From the IMG/VR virus record IMGVR_UViG_3300009079_000013: DNA of 64,000 nt. The stretch is one strand, 5' to 3'. Below the pieces are notes generated by a model that made no database searches, was not told the origin of the DNA, and saw only the letters and a list, made by a program, of their open reading frames with translations. The DNA comes from a virus. A program made the translations under genes and the position numbers. Shown here piece after piece: positions 12,984 to 40,346 of the stretch (position 1 is its first letter; each line of letters starts with the position of its first letter).

Positions 12984-13036
12984 AATACATTTAGTATAAT
13001 ATACAAATATACAATAACTAAAAAAATACATTAAAA

Positions 13037-14383: not shown

Positions 14384-15484
14384 ATGATTTACCTGATAGA
14401 CGGAAACGCGTACTTAAATGTTGCAATAAATGTAGTAAAGAGAATGCTATACACCGACAAAACAGCAGGAAAAGAATATTATATGAGAGACATCTTCAAT
14501 GAAGATAGGTATATCTTAAAGGAAACTGCAAGAATAAAATTTAGAGATTTTTCACTAAATTACCTATCTTCATTGATTTCTCCTGTTAGCGACTCAGTAA
14601 ACGAAGTTCACATAGTCTTTGATTCTAAAAGTTGGAGAAAAGAATATGTAACATCTAAGCTCAAAACTCTTTCTTTACCTTCAGGTGATTTTAAGTATAA
14701 AGACAGGAAAAAAGACAATATGATATATTTGTTTTTTGAGTATTTTCAAAATGAAATTCAAAGTTATCTTGAAAAAAATTCAGGTATTGTTTTTCATAGA
14801 ACGCCTGGTATGGAAGGTGATGATATAATCGCTCAACTTTGTGAAAATACTAATAAGAATATGATTATCTATACAGTAGATAAAGATATGTTTCAATTAG
14901 TAGAAGATTCTAGCAGATTCATTATTTTAGCCATGCCCAAAATGATGTCAAAGAACAAAAAAATATTCTACACTAAAAAAAGTGACGCTGGAGATTTCTT
15001 TAGTTTAACTGAGACAAATAGTGTTGAAGGAACTATTTCAAAATTTGAAAAGAGAGGGTATGTTAGAAATGAAATAGGCCCGATTAATGAAATAGTAACT
15101 AAGGTTTTTACTGGAGATAAATCAGATAATATCCCTAGAATACATAAAATGACTCCTTCTAAAGTTAAAAAAGTAGCAGCCTATCTTATAGAAAAATATG
15201 ACTCTGAAATATTAGATAAACTAGATAACTATAAAAATGATATTTCATTTATAGAAGAATGCGCTAAAAAAGTAATTGAAGTAGCCAAAATAAAAGACAG
15301 CGATGTCATTTTATCTTTAAACGAAGCGATATGCCTGAATATTAAATTAATGAGGTTATCCACCAAAATGATACCTTCTCATGTTAAAACAGAGGAGTAT
15401 GATAAAATATACAAAAATAAAGTATATACCAAATTTAACTATAATAAATTAGTAGAAATAAAAAATAATTCAGTACTTATATGA
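14384..15484 (+). CDS. rnh: 5'-3' exonuclease / T4 RNase H (FEN family)
   Basis: LIDGN, VFDSKSWRK, EGDDII, DKDMFQL and GDKSDNIP. Confidence 0.88.
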   Translation: MIYLIDGNAYLNVAINVVKRMLYTDKTAGKEYYMRDIFNEDRYILKETARIKFRDFSLNYLSSLISPVSDSVNEVHIVFDSKSWRKEYVTSKLKTLSLPSGDFKYKDRKKDNMIYLFFEYFQNEIQSYLEKNSGIVFHRTPGMEGDDIIAQLCENTNKNMIIYTVDKDMFQLVEDSSRFIILAMPKMMSKNKKIFYTKKSDAGDFFSLTETNSVEGTISKFEKRGYVRNEIGPINEIVTKVFTGDKSDNIPRIHKMTPSKVKKVAAYLIEKYDSEILDKLDNYKNDISFIEECAKKVIEVAKIKDSDVILSLNEAICLNIKLMRLSTKMIPSHVKTEEYDKIYKNKVYTKFNYNKLVEIKNNSVLI

Positions 15485-15780
15485 AACCGTTATACGAAAG
15501 AATTTTAATTAAACCAGTAGAAAAAGAAACTCAGACTAAGTCTGGTATTCTATTACCTGGAAAAGCAGTAAAAAGACCTAATATAGGAACAGTTGTTGCT
15601 TGCGGAGAAGGAACTCCTCATAATCCAATGAAAGTAAAAGCAGGTGATATTGTATTATGTAATAGATACGCGGGTATCGATATAAATTACAAAGATACTT
15701 CTCACTATGTTATTATGTCTAATGAAATTATCGCAGTATTGGACACTGTAGATGAAGTTAAGTTAGACGAATATGAATAG
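15481..15780 (+). CDS. groES: Co-chaperonin GroES
   Basis: KPLYERILIK, TKSGILLP, GTVVACGEG and VKAGDIVL. Confidence 0.95.
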   Translation: MKPLYERILIKPVEKETQTKSGILLPGKAVKRPNIGTVVACGEGTPHNPMKVKAGDIVLCNRYAGIDINYKDTSHYVIMSNEIIAVLDTVDEVKLDEYE

Positions 15781-16801
15781 GAAGTTTGATTTCAATGACA
15801 TACTAATATGTCCAGCAATCCAAACATCTATACAATCTAGAGATAATATAGATATTTATTATCCAGATGGTAATCTCCCAATAATAACGGCTCCAATGGA
15901 TACTGTTATATCAAGACAAAACGAACATGCATTTAGCTCTAATAGAATTATAGCGTGTTTACCTAGGGGTGAAAAGACAGGATTTTCAGGAATAGAATCG
16001 TATTCATTGCACGATATAACTAAAATGTTTAATTCTGGTGAACTTAAGAAACACTCAGGTTACTTAATAGATATAGCCAATGGTCATATCAATGATTTAG
16101 AAAGTATCACTAGAAGCATTAAAAACAAATATGGTGATGACATATATCTAATGGTAGGTAATGTAGCTCATCCTAAAACATATAAAATATTATCTGAAGC
16201 GGGTGCAGATTCAATTAGAGTAGGGATAGGTAATGGAGCAGGTTGCTTAACAACACAGCAAACAGGAGTAGGTTATCCAATGGCTTCTCTTATTCAAGAA
16301 TGTTATCATGAATCTTGTTCTTTAGATAAACCTGCTATGATAGTGGCAGATGGAGGAATGAAGACGTATTCTGATATAATAAAGGCTCTAGCATTAGGCG
16401 CAGATTTCGTTATGCTGGGATCTATTTTAAATAAAGCGCTAGAAAGTTGTTCACCATGTATGTATGAATCTAAATTTGCAGGAAACTCTACTGGTTTAAA
16501 TGAATTAACTCATACAGAAGCGTTGGAAATGTTTAACAATGGACAACCCATATTTAAAAACTTTAGAGGCATGTCAACTAAAGAAGTTCAAAAGAAATGG
16601 GGAAAACAAAATATAAAAACCTCAGAAGGTATATCTGAAATTAGACAAGTTGAATATACTCTTTCAGGCTGGACTGACAATTTTAAACACTACTTAAAGT
16701 CAGCAATGAGCTACACTAATTCTATAAATCTAAATGAATTTATAGGAAAAGTTGTTATTGATATGATAACAAATAACGCTTACGAAAGATTTAAAAAATA
16801 A
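15773..16801 (+). CDS. guaC: GMP reductase (IMPDH/GMPR family)
   Basis: APMDTV, RVGIGNGAGCLT, ADGG, FRGMS and SEG. No CBS domains. Confidence 0.8.
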   Translation: MNRKFDFNDILICPAIQTSIQSRDNIDIYYPDGNLPIITAPMDTVISRQNEHAFSSNRIIACLPRGEKTGFSGIESYSLHDITKMFNSGELKKHSGYLIDIANGHINDLESITRSIKNKYGDDIYLMVGNVAHPKTYKILSEAGADSIRVGIGNGAGCLTTQQTGVGYPMASLIQECYHESCSLDKPAMIVADGGMKTYSDIIKALALGADFVMLGSILNKALESCSPCMYESKFAGNSTGLNELTHTEALEMFNNGQPIFKNFRGMSTKEVQKKWGKQNIKTSEGISEIRQVEYTLSGWTDNFKHYLKSAMSYTNSINLNEFIGKVVIDMITNNAYERFKK

Positions 16802-16807
16802 CCAAAA

Positions 16808-17386
16808 ATGAAAATGGCAGATATGAATAGCCTACCGCTTCCTTTACATAGAACTCTTATGTTTGCAAAGGACGTTAATTTAGAGTCAATTGAGGCTTTA
16901 TCTAGAAATATACTTAGGATAAATGAAGACGATGATCATCTTGAAAAATTGTACAAAGTCTACGATATAGATTATATCAGAAGACCCATTAAAATAATGA
17001 TAGATAGTTATGGAGGATATGTATATCAATGTATGGGATTACTTGGTATAATGGAAAAATCAGTTACTCCTGTGCATACCTATGCAACAGGTGCTGCAAT
17101 GTCCTGTGGTTTTATGATACTTATATCTGGACATAAAAGGTTTGCCTATAGACATGCTACTCCTATGTATCATCAAGTATCTACTGGTTTTTGGGGAAAA
17201 ACACAGGATATGGAAGAAAGTTATAAAGAAACTAAAAGACTTCAACAAAAATTTGAAAACATAACATTAGAATCAACAAAAATATCTAAAACTAAGTTAA
17301 AAGATATTCTTAAAACAAAGCAAGATTGGTACATGGATGCTAAAGAAGCTTTATCACATGGGGTAATAGATAAAATAATAGATTAA
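16808..17386 (+). CDS. clpP: ClpP-family serine protease
   Basis: IDSYGG, AAMSCG, MYHQ and DWYMDAKEALSHGVIDKI. Confidence 0.88.
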   Translation: MKMADMNSLPLPLHRTLMFAKDVNLESIEALSRNILRINEDDDHLEKLYKVYDIDYIRRPIKIMIDSYGGYVYQCMGLLGIMEKSVTPVHTYATGAAMSCGFMILISGHKRFAYRHATPMYHQVSTGFWGKTQDMEESYKETKRLQQKFENITLESTKISKTKLKDILKTKQDWYMDAKEALSHGVIDKIID

Positions 17387-17387
17387 T

Positions 17388-17609
17388 ATGAACAAAGAAT
17401 TATACATAATGCTAGAAACAATGGCTTTAGCAGAAATTGCAAAAGCTAAAATGAGTTTACACCTTTTAGGAGAAAAATCAGTTGGCATAGGAGACCATTC
17501 AACTGCTGATTTTTATAATAACGCAGACGAAGCTCTCGCTAAATTAGCCGAAGCTGAAGATAAACTACAATGCTTAGAAAAAAATTATACACAAAAAGTT
17601 AAACTTTAA
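17388..17609 (+). CDS. Small conserved phage hypothetical protein
   Basis: Operonic ORF; VGIGDHS followed by a helix. Confidence 0.65.
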   Translation: MNKELYIMLETMALAEIAKAKMSLHLLGEKSVGIGDHSTADFYNNADEALAKLAEAEDKLQCLEKNYTQKVKL

Positions 17610-17627
17610 TAAAAACTTTAGTATAAT
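17601..17627 (+). promoter_or_regulatory. Promoter AAAC-N17-TATAAT upstream of the ncRNA
   Basis: AAAC at 17601-04, TATAAT at 17622-27, and a boxA-like GTTCTTTAA at 17648-56. Confidence 0.6.
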
Positions 17628-17663
17628 ATTTTACAAGTAAGAAAAACGTTCTTTAATTTATTG

Positions 17664-18083
17664 GTGAAAGGTGTCAGATATCGACGGATTGATGACATTG
17701 ATATGTGCCTGAATAATAAGTGAAGCGAAGCTTATAAAGGAATGTATTAGATCGATGGATCGCAATTAAAGTCCTATACCAAGGACCTACTCTAATGAGA
17801 ATATTGAACTAAGATAGCTCTTAGAATACATGTACATAATAACAAGAATCTAAAAGATTCGCAAATTGTTTATAGGTAATACAAAAATCCTATTTAATGA
17901 CTGAATAACCATTACGTTTGCGTGGTAAGGTGTTTCTTAGACCATAGTGGTCCTAACGATGTGATGAACGAGTACAAGTTTAAAATGAGTTAGTTCTTTG
18001 ACAGAAGAAATAGAAAGCAACAATAATTTGTAGTAAACGATTAAGTTAGAGGTAATCTTTAATCCTCTCATATCATCTTTCAC
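17664..18083 (+). ncRNA. Large structured ncRNA of about 420 nt; possibly ROOL/GOLLD-like, family unassigned
   Basis: No ORF of 60 aa or more. It has its own promoter and terminator, the 5' and 3' ends pair (GTGAAAG/CTTTCAC and TGATATG/CATATCA), and there are many nested hairpins. Confidence 0.7.
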
Positions 18084-18094
18084 TTTTTATATTT

Positions 18095-18123
18095 AAACCC
18101 AATCTTTTTAGATTGGGTTTTTT
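18095..18123 (+). terminator. Terminator downstream of the ncRNA
   Basis: AAACCCAATCT-TTTT-AGATTGGGTTT followed by TTT. Confidence 0.85.
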
Positions 18124-18165
18124 AGGTATACCTGATTTTTTTAAAATTCCTTTCTCTCTAAACTA

Positions 18166-18193
18166 AAAGAAGAGAGCAATTGCTCTCTTCTTT
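18166..18193 (-). terminator. Terminator for the tail sheath gene (perfect 28-bp palindrome)
   Basis: AAAGAAGAGAGCAATTGCTCTCTTCTTT. Confidence 0.75.
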
Positions 18194-18215
18194 ATACTTT
18201 CGTATGAATGTTTAG

Positions 18216-21152
18216 TTAGAAACTTGGAGTAAATCCAGTTGAATCTGAGCTTAATCCTCCACCAACTCTAGTAATAGTAATTCTATTGATGAATTTATGA
18301 ATTCCTCTTGGGAAGTCTACACTAATATCAACAATCGCAGTATTAGCTTCAATTACTTCATTAGTATTATTCTCAGTATCAAATTGTACTGTATAGCCTT
18401 GAAGACCTCTAGCATTTACAACTGAGTCCATGTAGTTTTCTAATATTCCTTTAACTCTTAATCTTGTGATTTCATCATTAAAGTCAAATAAGAAATTAAC
18501 TAATATTTGTTCAATGTCTCTTTCAATAGTAGATAGGTTATCTCTAATATGAGCATTGTTAAGAGCTGATTTAACTCTTTGGTATGCAGTGTTATTACTA
18601 AATACTGTAATTCCAAATCCTCTTCTTTTAACTATTAAATTATGACCAACTGGCTCTAAGAAATCTCTATCGTCATTTGTTAAATCATATTCTAATCCAA
18701 CTACTTCTGGATCAGTGATAATAGCTCTTTTACCAGCAGTAATCAAGAAAGGTGTTCCGTTCTTAAATTTTCTAACATACGCGTTAGATACATAAGCTGC
18801 TGGTGGAACTGATTTAGTTTTACCGCCTTCTCTAATAAGCATGTTTGGCATTACAAAATATTCGTAAGATGACAATGGCACTCCATTAACATCTTCATCT
18901 GCAAATTTAAAGGTATAGCTTGGATTCAAACTTAAATTACCTCCTTTAGAAATATATTCTGTTGAAACTAATTTATTTACAACGTTAACAAAACTAGGGT
19001 CAACTGATTTTTCAAATTGTTCAAATGAAGGATCGTTTAATATCGCCATGACCTTTCCATTCATTGCTGCTATTTTTCCAAGATGATACTTAGAAGATTG
19101 AGATAGATCTCCTTCATAAGAATCTACTATATATCTATAATCTATAGTTTCTCTGTCTGAAAGAGCAGAAGGTATTGCTGTATATTTAAACAGATACTCT
19201 AATATCTCTTTTTGTCTATCTGATGTAGAGTTAGGTAACAATCCAGTTCTTATTTTGAATCCTTTCATACATTGTCCCTTTAAAGAACCTACAAAGTTTG
19301 CAATTCCTTTATATACGGATATTGTATTTCCAGTAGTGTCTAATCCATCTACTTCGTTTATGCTAGGTACCATAGTAGTAATAACATATTCTAACCTATA
19401 AGGGCTTAAATCTTCGCTTGATGTAATTGAAATTATCTTAAGCAGCCTAGGTCTTGAATCTCCTACTAATCTAGCTTTAATATAGTGATTAACTTTTAAA
19501 AATTCATCAATCTCTGCTTTTTCAGCAGCATTAGCTGTATTTATACCTAATACTAATTTATTAGGTTGTTGTATTTGATAATCAGTAAAATAATCAGTGT
19601 CAGTTAAATCAAATACCTTTTTAAAATCTGAACCTGAATCTAATACATATTTTATGTAGTCGTCTACGTTATTATACGTATTTACTGCGATTCTATTTAA
19701 TAAACTGGAATCCTGATATGTGTAAATCTTAATGTAAGAATAATCATTTCCTCCAAGGTCTTGTATAAAACCATCTTCTATTTTAGAATAATAAGTGTTT
19801 ACGCCATCAATAGATTCGTCTCCTGTTCTTAAGAAGCCATCTGTATATGCTTTATAAACTTTACTATCTTCAAAAGCTATTAAATAATCATCAGCAGCTG
19901 TCCATTTAATTAAACTACTTGTTGTTGCTCCAGTAAAATCATTCTCTGGCAAAGACAAATCTATTTTGTAAATAAGTTCCTTGTCTCCAGGTTTACTATA
20001 ACTCAATATGTCTATTAAAGGTGTACTATCTGCTACAGTTCCAGATGGTTCAAAACCACCGTTGTCTATTGAATATACATCGTCTGAATCTAATTCATCA
20101 TATCCATGTCCTATTGTATCAACTCTATGTGTTTCCATGTTGATATCGCTAAAATTGTCGTCTTCTAAGTCTATCAAATCTAATTTATCTGCGTCTAATG
20201 CACATAATAAACCGGTAGTGGCAAATAATCTATTTACTAATGAATCAACTGATGCAATAGTACCACTTTGATCTTTAAATTCTGGTATCAAACATCCTGT
20301 TACTCTAGCGATTGCTTGTACTTCTTGTAAAGCTAAGAATGAAGGTACTTGACTGTCTATCAATCCGCTTTCATCAAAGAATTGACTAAATAGAGCATCT
20401 TTTGATAATCTAATGTTATTAGACCAATCTCCATCTACTATGATTACTTCTACGAAATAATCTGAAATAAAATCGTCTGCGCTAACAAAATTAGGAAAGT
20501 CAATTGATTCTCCAAAACTAGCATACCATTCTTTAGCTGTTACATCAAATCCAGTAACGGTTGCTTTTCTAACCCACACCGTCATATTAGTGTTTCCTGT
20601 ATTAGCAAAACTTAATATTTTATTTGATGCGATAGATGCGTTACCAAATGAACTAGGATTTAATATATAATCATCTCCTAATGCTAAGTTTTTTGATTTA
20701 TTTAAGCTTTCATCATCCGCGAACCACAGTTTTCTCTTGTTAAAGAATTCAACTAGTGGATATTGATATGGTGCAGAGTCTTCATTATTAGAAGAAGATT
20801 CAGTATTATATGTTGTAAAGTAGGCTTTATCTAAGTTAGCAACAACGTCAGTGTCTGTATCTAAAGGCAGTACATTCATTGCAAAAACGGGACCTTCCCG
20901 TAATGCTACTTCTATTGTTCTATGAAAGTAACTTCCTTGTTTTTCTAATTGAGTATCTCTGTCTCCATATACTGCGTTTAATGTACGTACATCGTTTATT
21001 AATACCACTGTATTAAAAGGACCTTTTCTACTAGATCCTATGATTAATCTTCCTGTCGTAAGCGGTAGAGCTAGACCTTGACTTTGGTCTATTTCAACTG
21101 TATACACACCAGATGATTTAAAGTTGTTTAAGTTTAATACTTTTTCGGCCAT
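18216..21152 (-). CDS. Contractile tail sheath protein (gp18-like)
   Basis: SSGVYTVEID, GSSRKGPFN, VPPAAYV, SALNNAHIRD and FLFDFNDEITR. ATAAATA at 21174-21180. Confidence 0.9.
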   Translation of the reverse strand: MAEKVLNLNNFKSSGVYTVEIDQSQGLALPLTTGRLIIGSSRKGPFNTVVLINDVRTLNAVYGDRDTQLEKQGSYFHRTIEVALREGPVFAMNVLPLDTDTDVVANLDKAYFTTYNTESSSNNEDSAPYQYPLVEFFNKRKLWFADDESLNKSKNLALGDDYILNPSSFGNASIASNKILSFANTGNTNMTVWVRKATVTGFDVTAKEWYASFGESIDFPNFVSADDFISDYFVEVIIVDGDWSNNIRLSKDALFSQFFDESGLIDSQVPSFLALQEVQAIARVTGCLIPEFKDQSGTIASVDSLVNRLFATTGLLCALDADKLDLIDLEDDNFSDINMETHRVDTIGHGYDELDSDDVYSIDNGGFEPSGTVADSTPLIDILSYSKPGDKELIYKIDLSLPENDFTGATTSSLIKWTAADDYLIAFEDSKVYKAYTDGFLRTGDESIDGVNTYYSKIEDGFIQDLGGNDYSYIKIYTYQDSSLLNRIAVNTYNNVDDYIKYVLDSGSDFKKVFDLTDTDYFTDYQIQQPNKLVLGINTANAAEKAEIDEFLKVNHYIKARLVGDSRPRLLKIISITSSEDLSPYRLEYVITTMVPSINEVDGLDTTGNTISVYKGIANFVGSLKGQCMKGFKIRTGLLPNSTSDRQKEILEYLFKYTAIPSALSDRETIDYRYIVDSYEGDLSQSSKYHLGKIAAMNGKVMAILNDPSFEQFEKSVDPSFVNVVNKLVSTEYISKGGNLSLNPSYTFKFADEDVNGVPLSSYEYFVMPNMLIREGGKTKSVPPAAYVSNAYVRKFKNGTPFLITAGKRAIITDPEVVGLEYDLTNDDRDFLEPVGHNLIVKRRGFGITVFSNNTAYQRVKSALNNAHIRDNLSTIERDIEQILVNFLFDFNDEITRLRVKGILENYMDSVVNARGLQGYTVQFDTENNTNEVIEANTAIVDISVDFPRGIHKFINRITITRVGGGLSSDSTGFTPSF

Positions 21153-40322: not shown

Positions 40323-40346
40323 TTAAAATTTTAGTATAATAATTGC

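What the first reader, a model, noticed from the sequence alone, without database searches (positions are those of the whole stretch)
17601..18123. Stand-alone, highly structured ncRNA of about 420 nt with its own promoter, boxA-like leader and terminator
Seen: an ORF-free stretch of about 600 bp in an otherwise densely packed genome. It has a promoter (AAAC-N17-TATAAT), a boxA-like GTTCTTTAA (17648-56) and a strong terminator (18095-18123). Long-range pairings close the RNA: 17664-71/18076-83 and 17699-705/18069-75. ATGTATT 17742-48 pairs with AATACAT 17825-31, enclosing GATC/GATC, GTCCT/AGGAC and CTAAGA/TCTTAG hairpins. Further stems are AACAA+GAATCT/AGATTC+TTGTT (17841-70), ATAGG/CCTAT (17872-93), GACCA/TGGTC (17940-52) and AGAGG/CCTCT (18048-68). 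The loop TAATC of the last stem could pseudoknot with GATTA at 18039-43. Inference: an ornate large RNA. The 3' AAGTT..AGGTAATC..ATCCT end recalls ROOL-type phage RNAs, but it is shorter than ROOL or GOLLD and may be a new class.
Basis: partly seen in the sequence, partly recalled or inferred. Interest (0 to 1): 0.85.

Follow-up and report, generated by a model that had tools for sequence, protein, structure and literature searches.

The report
Double-core manA-like phage RNA gene
The flagged gene-free stretch is a real, free-standing gene for a tightly folded RNA of about 490 bases in an uncultured marine giant phage. It consists of one "manA" RNA core nested inside another, a family that a 2026 preprint reports to build RNA-only cages, so it is an uncatalogued variant of a known RNA rather than a new class.

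Summary
Window 17610-18215 has no plus-strand ORF. It carries a conserved TATAAT promoter, a boxA-like leader, a 420-nt closed fold (17664-18083) and an intrinsic terminator.

It is not ROOL or GOLLD, and it is not a new class. Both halves match Rfam manA (RF01745): 17706-17893 at 32.8 bits and 17898-18068 at 34.5 bits. Both E-values are about 4e-7, but both scores are below the gathering score of 55.2.

Six distinct homologues (63-95% identical) support a 116-bp structure. 96.7% of cells are paired. 43 pairs show changes on both sides, against 10.6 in shuffles and 4-8 in slid controls.

The two cores are not a plain tandem. Helix 17835-40/18040-45 puts the second core inside P8 of the first. 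The equivalent helix is 100% paired with 5 of 8 covarying pairs in 17 sequences of a sister class.

The last hairpin's loop (UCUUU, 18056-60) pairs with AAAGA (17853-57).

No gene follows on the same strand. Close relatives have tRNA-Ala, tRNA-Glu and tRNA-Gln there instead.

The function is inferred: a stable, probably self-associating RNA. Expression could not be tested. Earlier follow-ups of this scan reported double-core manA-like RNAs on other DNA.

The parts
17599..17627 (+). Sigma-70-type promoter: weak -35 TTAAAC (17599-604), 17-nt spacer, perfect -10 TATAAT (17622-27). The predicted start near 17634 is inferred.
   Evidence: Read directly. TTTAGTATAAT is kept in all six homologues although the upstream genes differ in L029. 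The same 11-mer sits ahead of ORFs at 12990 and 40330. It was not called by the consensus scanner.
17647..17658 (+). boxA-like leader CGTTCTTTAATT
   Evidence: It matches 10 of 11 positions of the published consensus GYTCTTTAANA (PMC5725501), and L029 matches 11 of 11. AACGTTCTTT is invariant in six homologues. The sister class has GTT(C/T)TTTGA(C/A)AA at the same place. Binding of Nus factors is inferred.
17664..17670 (+). Outer closing helix P0, 5' strand (GUGAAAG). It pairs with 18077-18083.
   Evidence: 7 bp, invariant in six homologues, so conserved but without covariation (helix 1). The sister class also has closing helices at the same places; only its GGGAU/AUCCC helix was counted, and the outer one was seen by eye and not measured.
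17671..17698 (+). P1 hairpin with apical C-GACG-G loop. It corresponds to the 5' hairpin of the Rfam manA model.
   Evidence: Three pairs have changes on both sides (helices 2-3). The Rfam consensus 5' hairpin 'uguugg GAcg ccaaca' is shown.
17699..17705 (+). Closing helix P2, 5' strand (UGAUAUG). It pairs with 18069-18075. It corresponds to the bracketed GGGaG/CuCCC helix of the manA model.
   Evidence: 97.6% of cells paired (helix 4). Model brackets. GGGAU/AUCCC is 100% paired in 17 sequences of the sister class.
17706..17834 (+). manA-like core A: UGCCUGAAUAA, P3 (17708-09/17739-40 and 17717-21/17730-34), and junction stem P4 (17743-48/17825-30) enclosing hairpins 17750-61, 17771-86, 17790-99 and 17809-24.
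   Evidence: RF01745 match 17706-17893, 32.8 bits, E 3.5e-7. Covariation in P3, P4 and the hairpins (helices 5-11).
17835..17840 (+). Inter-core helix, 5' strand (CAUAAU), at the place of P8a of core A. It pairs with 18040-18045.
   Evidence: 35 of 36 cells paired; L029 has CUUAGU/ACUAAG (helix 12). The equivalent 8-bp helix is 100% paired with 5 of 8 covarying pairs in the 17-sequence sister class. A competing local pairing, 17836-40/17865-69, is perfect in 4 of 6 sequences, has one mismatch in L004 and fails in L029.
17846..17860 (+). P8b hairpin of core A (GAAUCU AAA AGAUUC). AAAGA at 17853-57 is complementary to the loop of the last hairpin.
   Evidence: helix 13. AAAGA is the only reverse complement of UCUUU in the RNA. 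L029 has AUAGA with UCUAU. The sister class shows AACGA/UCGUU, GAUGA/UCAUU, GUUGA/UCAAU and (A/C)GCGA/UCGCA.
17872..17893 (+). Middle GGUA...AAUCC hairpin (P9 type), between the two cores.
   Evidence: 100% paired, 2 pairs changed on both sides (helix 14). It matches the 3' hairpin of the manA model.
17898..18034 (+). manA-like core B: UGACUGAAUAA, P3 (17900-01/17930-31 and 17909-12/17922-25), and junction stem P4 (17933-37/18012-16) enclosing hairpins 17940-52, 17953-93 (invariant loop GAGUACAA at 17970-77) and 17995-18008; then hairpin 18017-34.
   Evidence: RF01745 match 17898-18068, 34.5 bits, E 4.6e-7. Covariation in every helix (helices 15-22).
18040..18045 (+). Inter-core helix, 3' strand (AUUAAG)
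   Evidence: See 17835-40.
18048..18068 (+). Last GGUA...AAUCC hairpin (P9). Loop UCUUU at 18056-60 pairs with 17853-57.
   Evidence: helix 23.
18069..18083 (+). 3' strands of closing helices P2 (18069-75) and P0 (18077-83)
   Evidence: helices 1 and 4.
18095..18123 (+). Intrinsic terminator: 11-bp stem, UUUU loop, U run.
   Evidence: L005 and L029 have a different G+C hairpin followed by a U run at the same place.

Best explanation
Shown: window 17599-18123 is a self-contained RNA gene of an uncultured marine giant myophage.
- A TATAAT promoter and a boxA-like leader precede a 420-nt closed fold (17664-18083). An intrinsic terminator follows.
- The fold is an enlarged relative of the manA RNA. 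It keeps the manA frame: the P1 hairpin with a GACG loop, the P2 closing helix, the UGNCUGAAUAA/P3 element, a P4 multi-hairpin junction, P8, and the GGUA...AAUCC hairpin P9.
- A second manA core with its own P9-type hairpin is nested inside helix P8a of the first (17835-40/18040-45).
- An extra outer helix closes the whole RNA.
- The loop of P8b (AAAGA, 17853-57) is complementary to the loop of the last hairpin (UCUUU, 18056-60). This mirrors the loop pair I equate, by inference, with the preprint's L8-L9' kissing contact of single-core manA RNAs.

Inferred:
- It is made as a stable, non-coding RNA. The boxA leader recruits host Nus factors to protect the long untranslated transcript from Rho, as in rRNA operons.
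- It acts in trans. It does not switch a neighbouring gene.
- Like single-core manA RNAs in vitro, it probably joins with copies of itself through loop-loop contacts into a defined RNA particle. That particle would serve the phage as a scaffold or container.
- Its cargo or target is unknown.
For: Identity:
- Two RF01745 matches cover both halves, each spanning model positions 23-182.
- The same double match occurs in relatives L005/L008, and in L029 via its record G015.
- The P1 and P2 elements of the full model are visible.

Structure:
- 116 bp, 96.7% of cells paired.
- 43 pairs changed on both sides, against 10.6 +/- 2.7 in shuffles and 4-8 when the partners are slid.
- 11 such pairs remain when the divergent L029 is left out.
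- The plus strand folds better than the minus strand. The fold has six G-U pairs.

Nesting.

Loop-loop contact.

Free-standing gene:
- The promoter is conserved even where the upstream genes differ.
- A terminator is followed by the convergent tail-sheath gene.
- Close relatives carry tRNA-Ala, tRNA-Glu and tRNA-Gln about 40 nt behind it.

Leader.

Self-assembly of manA RNAs into decamers and a 60-mer through kissing loops: preprint 10.64898/2026.07.01.735769.

Phage RNAs ROOL and GOLLD also sit near tRNA islands and form nanocages: PMC12286853.
Against: - Transcript ends, abundance and stability are therefore untested.
- No test of oligomerisation was possible. Covariation cannot tell a contact within one molecule from one between molecules.
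- I found no convincing counterpart in this RNA of the complementary junction-hairpin loops of the manA consensus (GUGGUG with uaACCA), which I equate with the preprint's L5-L7' contact.
- Both manA matches are below the Rfam gathering score.
- Only six sequences are available, effectively three lineages. The structure was derived from them, which inflates the slid control.
- The outer helices never vary, so they rest on conservation alone in this class.
- The -35 element is weak.
- The boxA match is short and lies in A+T-rich DNA.
Confidence: 0.5

Rival explanations
1. It is a stable trans-acting RNA that works as a monomer by binding a host or phage protein or RNA, as a decoy or sponge in the manner of 6S or Y RNA. 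There is no RNA-only assembly, and the loop-loop contact is an internal tertiary contact.
For: The same evidence for a free-standing, structured RNA applies. The P8b-loop/last-hairpin pairing could be intramolecular. The invariant loop GAGUACAA sits on a covarying stem and could be a recognition site. The complementary junction-hairpin loops of the manA consensus have no evident counterpart here (my reading).
Against: Every single-core manA RNA examined in the preprint oligomerised. No partner protein is encoded next to the RNA in all homologues: the neighbours differ between the window and L029.
Confidence: 0.27
2. It is a cis-regulatory leader or riboswitch, as manA was first proposed to be. 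It would sense a ligand and control what lies downstream.
For: Rfam types manA as Cis-reg. Weinberg et al. found many copies in 5' UTRs. In L194, L195 and L196 three tRNA genes follow on the same strand.
Against: In the window, L005 and L029 an intrinsic terminator is followed directly by a convergent gene, so there is nothing downstream to regulate. The fold is closed by outer helices with no alternative terminator or anti-terminator arrangement. The terminator lies outside the conserved fold.
Confidence: 0.08
3. It is a structured 3' tail of the upstream GroES / IMPDH-like / ClpP / 73-aa operon. It would stabilise that mRNA or mark a processing site, and is not a gene of its own.
For: It is on the same strand as the upstream genes. 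No terminator lies between the 73-aa ORF (ending at 17609) and the RNA.
Against: L029 lacks ClpP and the 73-aa gene, yet keeps the promoter, the leader and the RNA. More distant phages with the same ClpP neighbourhood lack the RNA.
Confidence: 0.07

Closest known systems
manA RNA motif (Rfam RF01745; Weinberg et al. 2010, PMC2864571; cryo-EM preprint 10.64898/2026.07.01.735769)
   Same: - UGNCUGAAUAA...UAAGG element with P3.
- P4 junction with several hairpins.
- Bipartite P8.
- GGUA...AAUCC hairpin.
- 5' hairpin with a GACG loop.
- Closing helix.
- Complementary loops of P8b and the last hairpin.
- Marine phage origin.
   Different: - Two cores, the second nested in P8a of the first.
- An extra outer helix.
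- Core A has four junction hairpins.
- Core B has a long hairpin with the invariant loop GAGUACAA in place of the GNRA hairpin.
- Each half scores only 33-35 bits, against a gathering score of 55.2.
- It has its own promoter and terminator and no gene behind it, so it is not a 5' UTR element.
- The phage is not a cyanophage. Its sheath is 30-34% identical to those of huge phages and a Flavobacterium phage.
Sister class of double-core manA-like RNAs in IMG/VR contigs (L018, L022, L023, L033, L036, L037, L048, L056 and others; alignment A6)
   Same: - Same order of parts: leader, outer helix, P1, P2, core, inter-core helix, P8b, middle hairpin, core, last hairpin, closing strands, terminator.
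- Some members share the AUCGACGGAU loop of P1.
   Different: - About 45% identical over the extracted stretch with its flanks.
- P2 is GGGAU/AUCCC.
- The inter-core helix is 8 bp.
- The loops of the two cores look swapped in order relative to the window.
- The downstream half reaches the Rfam threshold in many members.
ROOL and GOLLD RNAs (Kretsch et al. 2025, PMC12286853)
   Same: Large ornate RNAs of phages, often beside tRNA genes, of unknown function. They form RNA-only nanocages.
   Different: There is no sequence or structure match in Rfam even at E up to 10. The fold is different and the RNA is shorter.
rRNA-operon leader with boxA (NusB/NusE site; Baniulyte et al. 2017, PMC5725501)
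   Same: GTTCTTTAA lies shortly after the promoter and ahead of a long untranslated structured RNA.
   Different: It matches 10 of 11 positions of a consensus derived for gamma-proteobacteria. The host is unknown. Binding has not been tested.

Membership tests
manA RNA (RF01745) | Score at or above the curated gathering score (55.2 bits) | tested here: not met
   32.8 and 34.5 bits. There are no hits at gathering threshold in the window. The E-values of 3.5e-7 and 4.6e-7 are nevertheless far from chance.
manA RNA (RF01745) | Conserved UGaCUGAAUAA ... UAAgG element flanking the P3 hairpin | tested here: met
   UGCCUGAAUAA (17706-16) with UAAAGG, and UGACUGAAUAA (17898-908) with UAAGG. Both are invariant or nearly so in six homologues.
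manA RNA (RF01745) | P4 stem enclosing three hairpins (P5-P7) | tested here: met
   Core B has three hairpins and core A has four. All stems covary (helices 7-11 and 17-21).
manA RNA (RF01745) | 3' hairpin with GGUA...AAUCC (P9) | tested here: met
   17872-93 and 18048-68.
manA RNA (RF01745) | 5' hairpin with GAcg loop (P1) and closing helix (P2) around the core | tested here: met
   17671-98 with loop C-GACG-G. 17699-705/18069-75. The sequence of P2 differs from the consensus GGGaG/CuCCC.
manA RNA (RF01745) | P8a formed within one core, enclosing only the P8b hairpin | tested here: not met
   The strand at the P8a position of core A pairs with the strand ahead of the last hairpin, enclosing P8b, the middle hairpin and all of core B.
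manA RNA (RF01745) | Complementary loops of P8b and P9 (the 'pseudoknot?' of Weinberg 2010, which I equate with the preprint's L8-L9' kissing contact) | tested here: met
   AAAGA/UCUUU in the window and AUAGA/UCUAU in L029. Four covarying variants occur in the sister class.
manA RNA (RF01745) | Complementary loops of the first and third junction hairpins (consensus GUGGUG with uaACCA, which I equate with L5-L7') | tested here: inconclusive
   I found no clear complementary pair among the loops GAUG, UAGC, UAG and GACA (reading). The loops are too short and A+U-rich to judge.
manA RNA (RF01745) | Position in a 5' UTR (the family is typed Cis-reg) | tested here: not met
   A terminator is followed by a convergent gene.
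manA RNA (RF01745) | RNA-only oligomers (decamer, 60-mer) | not testable with these tools
   Known for single-core members only, from a preprint.
ROOL / GOLLD / tmRNA / RNase P | Match to the Rfam covariance model | tested here: not met
   These families are absent from the list of matches at E up to 10 for 17400-18300. ARAGORN finds no tmRNA or tRNA in the window.
boxA antitermination leader | Consensus GYTCTTTAANA shortly after the transcription start | tested here: inconclusive
   10 of 11 positions in the window, 11 of 11 in L029, and 10 of 11 in L005 (G at position 8). The position is conserved in both classes. NusB/NusE binding is not testable here.

The most novel reading that the evidence does not exclude
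The double-core RNA is a covalently linked pair of manA protomers that assembles into a closed RNA-only shell during infection. It would be made like rRNA under Nus-factor antitermination. It would be used by giant marine phages as a container or platform, for example for the tRNAs encoded right behind it in close relatives. If so, 'manA' as a whole is a family of phage structural RNAs and not riboswitches.
Probability: 0.25. Interest if true: 0.85.

Novelty: new variant of a known kind. Interest (0 to 1): 0.6.

Why it matters
manA has been filed as a candidate riboswitch since 2010, and its function is unknown. This copy has its own promoter, an rRNA-style leader and a terminator, and no gene to regulate. 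It therefore argues that at least this branch of the family is a stable RNA acting in trans.

The nested two-core layout and the covarying loop-loop contact give concrete constructs and mutants for testing. One could ask whether a naturally linked pair of manA cores builds cages like the single cores do, and what such particles do for giant phages.

It also shows that the Rfam model, as built, sees only half of these RNAs and misses this class at its threshold.

Tried and rejected
- Rfam at gathering threshold gave nothing. ARAGORN found no tRNA or tmRNA in the window.
- blastn of the RNA, and of a sister-class RNA, against GenBank phages gave no match.
- More distant phages with the same ClpP neighbourhood (54-78% ClpP identity) have no manA-like RNA at the locus or elsewhere in their records.
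- My 'junction' pattern was first read as proof of tandems. One search showed that Rfam model positions 1-22 align to the hairpin matched by the pattern, so a hit need not be a junction between two cores. Nine of its 41 loci are chance hits without manA.
- The pattern CATATNNTCTTTCACTT gave mostly chance matches.
- The genome collection holds no copy of the window class.
- AACAA/UUGUU is specific to the window.
- The local pairing 17836-40/17865-69 is kept only as a possible folding intermediate.
- A contact between GUAC of the core B loop and UGUAC at 17831-35 is not conserved in the homologues.
- I found no covarying partner for the middle hairpin's loop in either class (reading).
- A scan for further conserved 4-nt complementarities among unpaired segments found only the inter-core helix.
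'relatives' cannot be drawn for a virus record.
Full report
WHAT IS THERE

The window is part of an 88.9-kb IMG/VR viral contig that CheckV rates 35% complete. The genome is therefore probably around 250 kb.

Between the stop of a 73-aa ORF (17609) and the stop of a convergent 978-aa tail-sheath gene (18216) there is no plus-strand ORF of 30 aa or more. The upstream genes on the plus strand are GroES, an IMPDH/GMP-reductase-like protein, ClpP, and a small protein of phage family phrog_1811.

- TATAAT at 17622-27, with a weak TTAAAC 17 nt upstream.
- GTTCTTTAA at 17648-56.
- The long-range pairings 17664-70/18077-83 and 17699-705/18069-75.
- An 11-bp terminator hairpin at 18095-18120 followed by Us.

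The simple consensus scanner called neither the promoter nor the terminator, because its rules are stricter. These two features therefore rest on direct reading and on conservation.

The plus strand folds to -112.8 kcal/mol (z = -3.78, 0 of 100 shuffles as stable). The minus strand gives z = -2.18.

WHAT IT IS

Rfam at gathering thresholds finds nothing in the window. With E-value reporting, however, the two halves each match the manA RNA family RF01745 over model positions 23-182:
- 17898-18068: 34.5 bits, E 4.6e-7.
- 17706-17893: 32.8 bits, E 3.5e-7.

No ROOL, GOLLD, RNase P or tmRNA match appears even at E up to 10. ARAGORN finds no tRNA or tmRNA.

The full manA consensus is visible. It has these parts:
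- a 5' hairpin with a GAcg loop;
- a closing helix (GGGaG/CuCCC);
- UGaCUGAAUAA with a hairpin and UAAgG;
- a stem enclosing three hairpins;
- a bipartite hairpin;
- a GGUA...AAUCC hairpin.

The window RNA has all of these. The hairpin 17671-98 even ends in C-GACG-G, and 17699-705/18069-75 takes the place of the closing helix. The core elements occur twice.

I number the helices P1-P9 by matching the consensus loops to the loops named in the cryo-EM preprint (L6 is a GNRA loop; L5/L7 and L8/L9 are complementary). That mapping is my inference.

HOMOLOGUES AND COVARIATION

A search by the neighbouring ClpP gene and by DNA patterns in IMG/VR and JGI metagenomes gave six distinct copies of the whole RNA:
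- the window;
- L004 (identical to L194);
- L005 (identical to L008 and L198);
- L029 (identical to L020 and L197);
- L195;
- L196.

They are 63-95% identical to the window.

I built a 116-bp, 23-helix structure from the manA layout, RNAalifold and inspection. On the six-sequence alignment A4:
- 96.7% of cells are paired;
- 43 pairs changed on both sides, against 10.6 +/- 2.7 in column shuffles and 4-8 when partners are slid by 1-3 columns.

Eleven such pairs remain if the divergent L029 is left out.

Caveats:
- Six sequences amount to about three lineages.
- The structure was derived from these same sequences.
- The two outermost helices never vary in this class.

In the window itself 113 of 116 pairs are standard, and six of them are G-U. 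This fits an RNA read from the plus strand.

ARCHITECTURE: NESTED, NOT SIMPLY TANDEM

A scan for conserved complementarity among the unpaired segments found 17837-40 with 18040-43. RNAalifold had predicted the same pairing.

The full helix is 17835-40 (CAUAAU) with 18040-45 (AUUAAG). The first strand lies where core A should have the 5' strand of P8a. The second lies just ahead of the last hairpin, where core B should have the 3' strand of P8a.
- It is perfect in four homologues.
- It has one A-A mismatch in the window.
- In L029 it reads CUUAGU/ACUAAG, which is two compensated changes.

A pattern search had also brought in a sister class of double-core RNAs, about 45% identical to the window. 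It has the same order of parts.

In 17 distinct sequences of that class the equivalent 8-bp helix is paired in every cell, and 5 of 8 pairs change on both sides. The variants are ACUUGAAG/CUUCAAGU, AUUUCCGU/ACGGAAAU, ACUUUCAG/CUGAAAGU, ACUUCUAG/CUAGAAGU and others.

So the second core, the middle hairpin and the P8b hairpin of core A all lie inside P8a of the first core.

A competing local pairing (17836-40/17865-69) is perfect in four of the six sequences, has one mismatch in L004 and fails in L029. It may be a folding intermediate.

LOOP-LOOP CONTACT

In L029 both sides changed and left a C-U mismatch. That segment is better explained by the inter-core helix.

Instead, the loop's UCUUU (18056-60) has a single reverse complement in the RNA: AAAGA at 17853-57, in the P8b hairpin of core A. 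L029 has UCUAU with AUAGA in the same hairpin.

The sister class shows four covarying variants of the same contact: AACGA/UCGUU, GAUGA/UCAUU, GUUGA/UCAAU and (A/C)GCGA/UCGCA.

This is the counterpart of the 'pseudoknot?' drawn by Weinberg et al.. I also equate it with the L8-L9' kissing loop that holds manA pentamers together in the preprint.

Covariation cannot say whether the contact here lies within one molecule or between molecules. I found no convincing counterpart of the L5-L7' contact, and no partner for the middle hairpin's loop.

The loop GAGUACAA (17970-77) is invariant on a stem that covaries at six of eight pairs. This marks it as a likely functional site.

A GENE OF ITS OWN

- The promoter motif TTTAGTATAAT and the leader AACGTTCTTT are kept in all six copies. 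This includes L029, where the RNA directly follows the IMPDH-like gene and ClpP and the 73-aa gene are absent.
- The exact promoter 11-mer recurs in the window only at 12990 and 40330, each just ahead of a plus-strand ORF.
- The terminator sequence differs between lineages, but a G+C hairpin with a U run is always there.
- In the window, L005 and L029 the next gene is the convergent sheath gene.
- In L194, L195 and L196 the RNA is followed, about 40 nt after its terminator, by tRNA-Ala(UGC), a 116-aa ORF, tRNA-Glu and tRNA-Gln.
- The window has no tRNA gene at all.
- More distant phages with the same ClpP neighbourhood lack the RNA.

This pattern fits a stable-RNA gene. It does not fit a 5' UTR switch or a 3' tail of the upstream operon.

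THE LEADER

GTTCTTTAATT matches the published boxA consensus GYTCTTTAANA at 10 of 11 positions, and L029 matches at 11 of 11 (PMC5725501).

The sister class has GTT(C/T)TTTGA(C/A)AA at the same distance ahead of its outer helix.

The exact 10-mer CGTTCTTTAA is unique in the window, but one-mismatch copies are no more frequent than chance. The argument therefore rests on conservation of sequence and position.

The role I propose is Nus-factor loading, which would shield a long untranslated RNA from Rho as in rRNA operons. This is inferred.

THE PHAGE

The sheath is only 30-34% identical to those of huge uncultured phages, Lak phages and a Flavobacterium phage. Neither class of the RNA has a blastn match in GenBank phages. 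The host is unknown.

One sister-class copy lies on a contig binned as a Candidatus Pelagibacter MAG. That is weak evidence at best.

COMPARISON WITH WHAT IS KNOWN

manA was described as a candidate riboswitch of marine bacteria and T4-like cyanophages (PMC2864571). Later papers repeat that description.

[quoted passage not shown] It does not mention tandem or double forms.

None of the six papers in the held library that mention both manA and RF01745 describes a double-core or nested form (five listed, four read).

ROOL and GOLLD are a functional parallel: phage RNAs near tRNA islands that form nanocages (PMC12286853). They are not relatives.

I therefore file this RNA as a new variant of a known kind. 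It works like manA and is clearly related to it. It fails three membership tests: the gathering score, a P8a formed within one core, and a 5' UTR position.

EARLIER NOTES OF THIS SCAN

Follow-up agents had already reported 'double-core' or 'double-module' manA-like phage RNAs on other DNA. Some were beside tRNA-Ala and some had an rRNA-like leader. My results agree with those notes.

I reached the manA assignment from Rfam before reading them. I tested the tRNA-Ala neighbourhood and the leader here. One of those notes reported joined ends, which would suggest a circular RNA. I could not test that.

VERDICT

- The RNA gene, its fold, the nesting and the loop-loop complementarity are shown.
- Antitermination, action in trans and self-assembly are inferred.

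Noticed in passing
L194:1575-2184 (-), L195:1255-1868 (+), L196:261-419 (-): In the closest relatives the RNA is followed on the same strand by tRNA-Ala(UGC), a 116-aa ORF, tRNA-Glu(UUC) and tRNA-Gln(UUG). tRNA-Ala starts about 40 nt after the RNA's terminator, which leaves no room for a promoter. The window, L005 and L029 lack this array.
   Followed up: partly
L022:1490-1600 and the same place in L018, L033, L037, L048, L049, L056: In the sister class the hairpin after the RNA (GGTTC...GAACC followed by a T run) encloses a conserved 40-50-nt element, GATTTTTAGTTTCCAC...AAACTT(T)AAAAA. Its role is unknown.
   Followed up: no
window 18167-18192: A perfect 26-nt palindrome, AAGAAGAGAGCAATTGCTCTCTTCTT, lies between the RNA's terminator and the stop of the sheath gene. 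It is probably the terminator of the sheath gene on the minus strand. Rfam lists it as weak chance matches to mir-46 and to plastid psbA 3'UTR families, among others.
   Followed up: partly
window 12990-13000 and 40330-40340: Exact copies of the promoter 11-mer TTTAGTATAAT sit just ahead of plus-strand ORFs (13037 and 40347). The 40330 copy also shares the upstream AACTTTTAATTAAAATT stretch. This may be a recurrent promoter type of this phage.
   Followed up: partly
L199:4626-4667 (NHJA01000041.1): A sister-class double-core RNA lies on a 16-kb contig binned as 'MAG: Candidatus Pelagibacter sp. TMED203'. It could be a mis-binned phage contig or a hint to the host.
   Followed up: no
window 17940-52 and 17995-18008, compared with A6 columns 124-146 and 175-200: The loops of the window's core B (AUAGUG, GACAG) resemble those of core A in the sister class. 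The UAAC loop of core A in L195, L196 and L029 resembles core B of the sister class. The order of the two cores may be swapped between the classes.
   Followed up: no
window 15481-17609: The RNA sits behind a phage GroES, an IMPDH/GMP-reductase-like gene, ClpP and a 73-aa protein of phage family phrog_1811. In L029 the last two are missing.
   Followed up: partly
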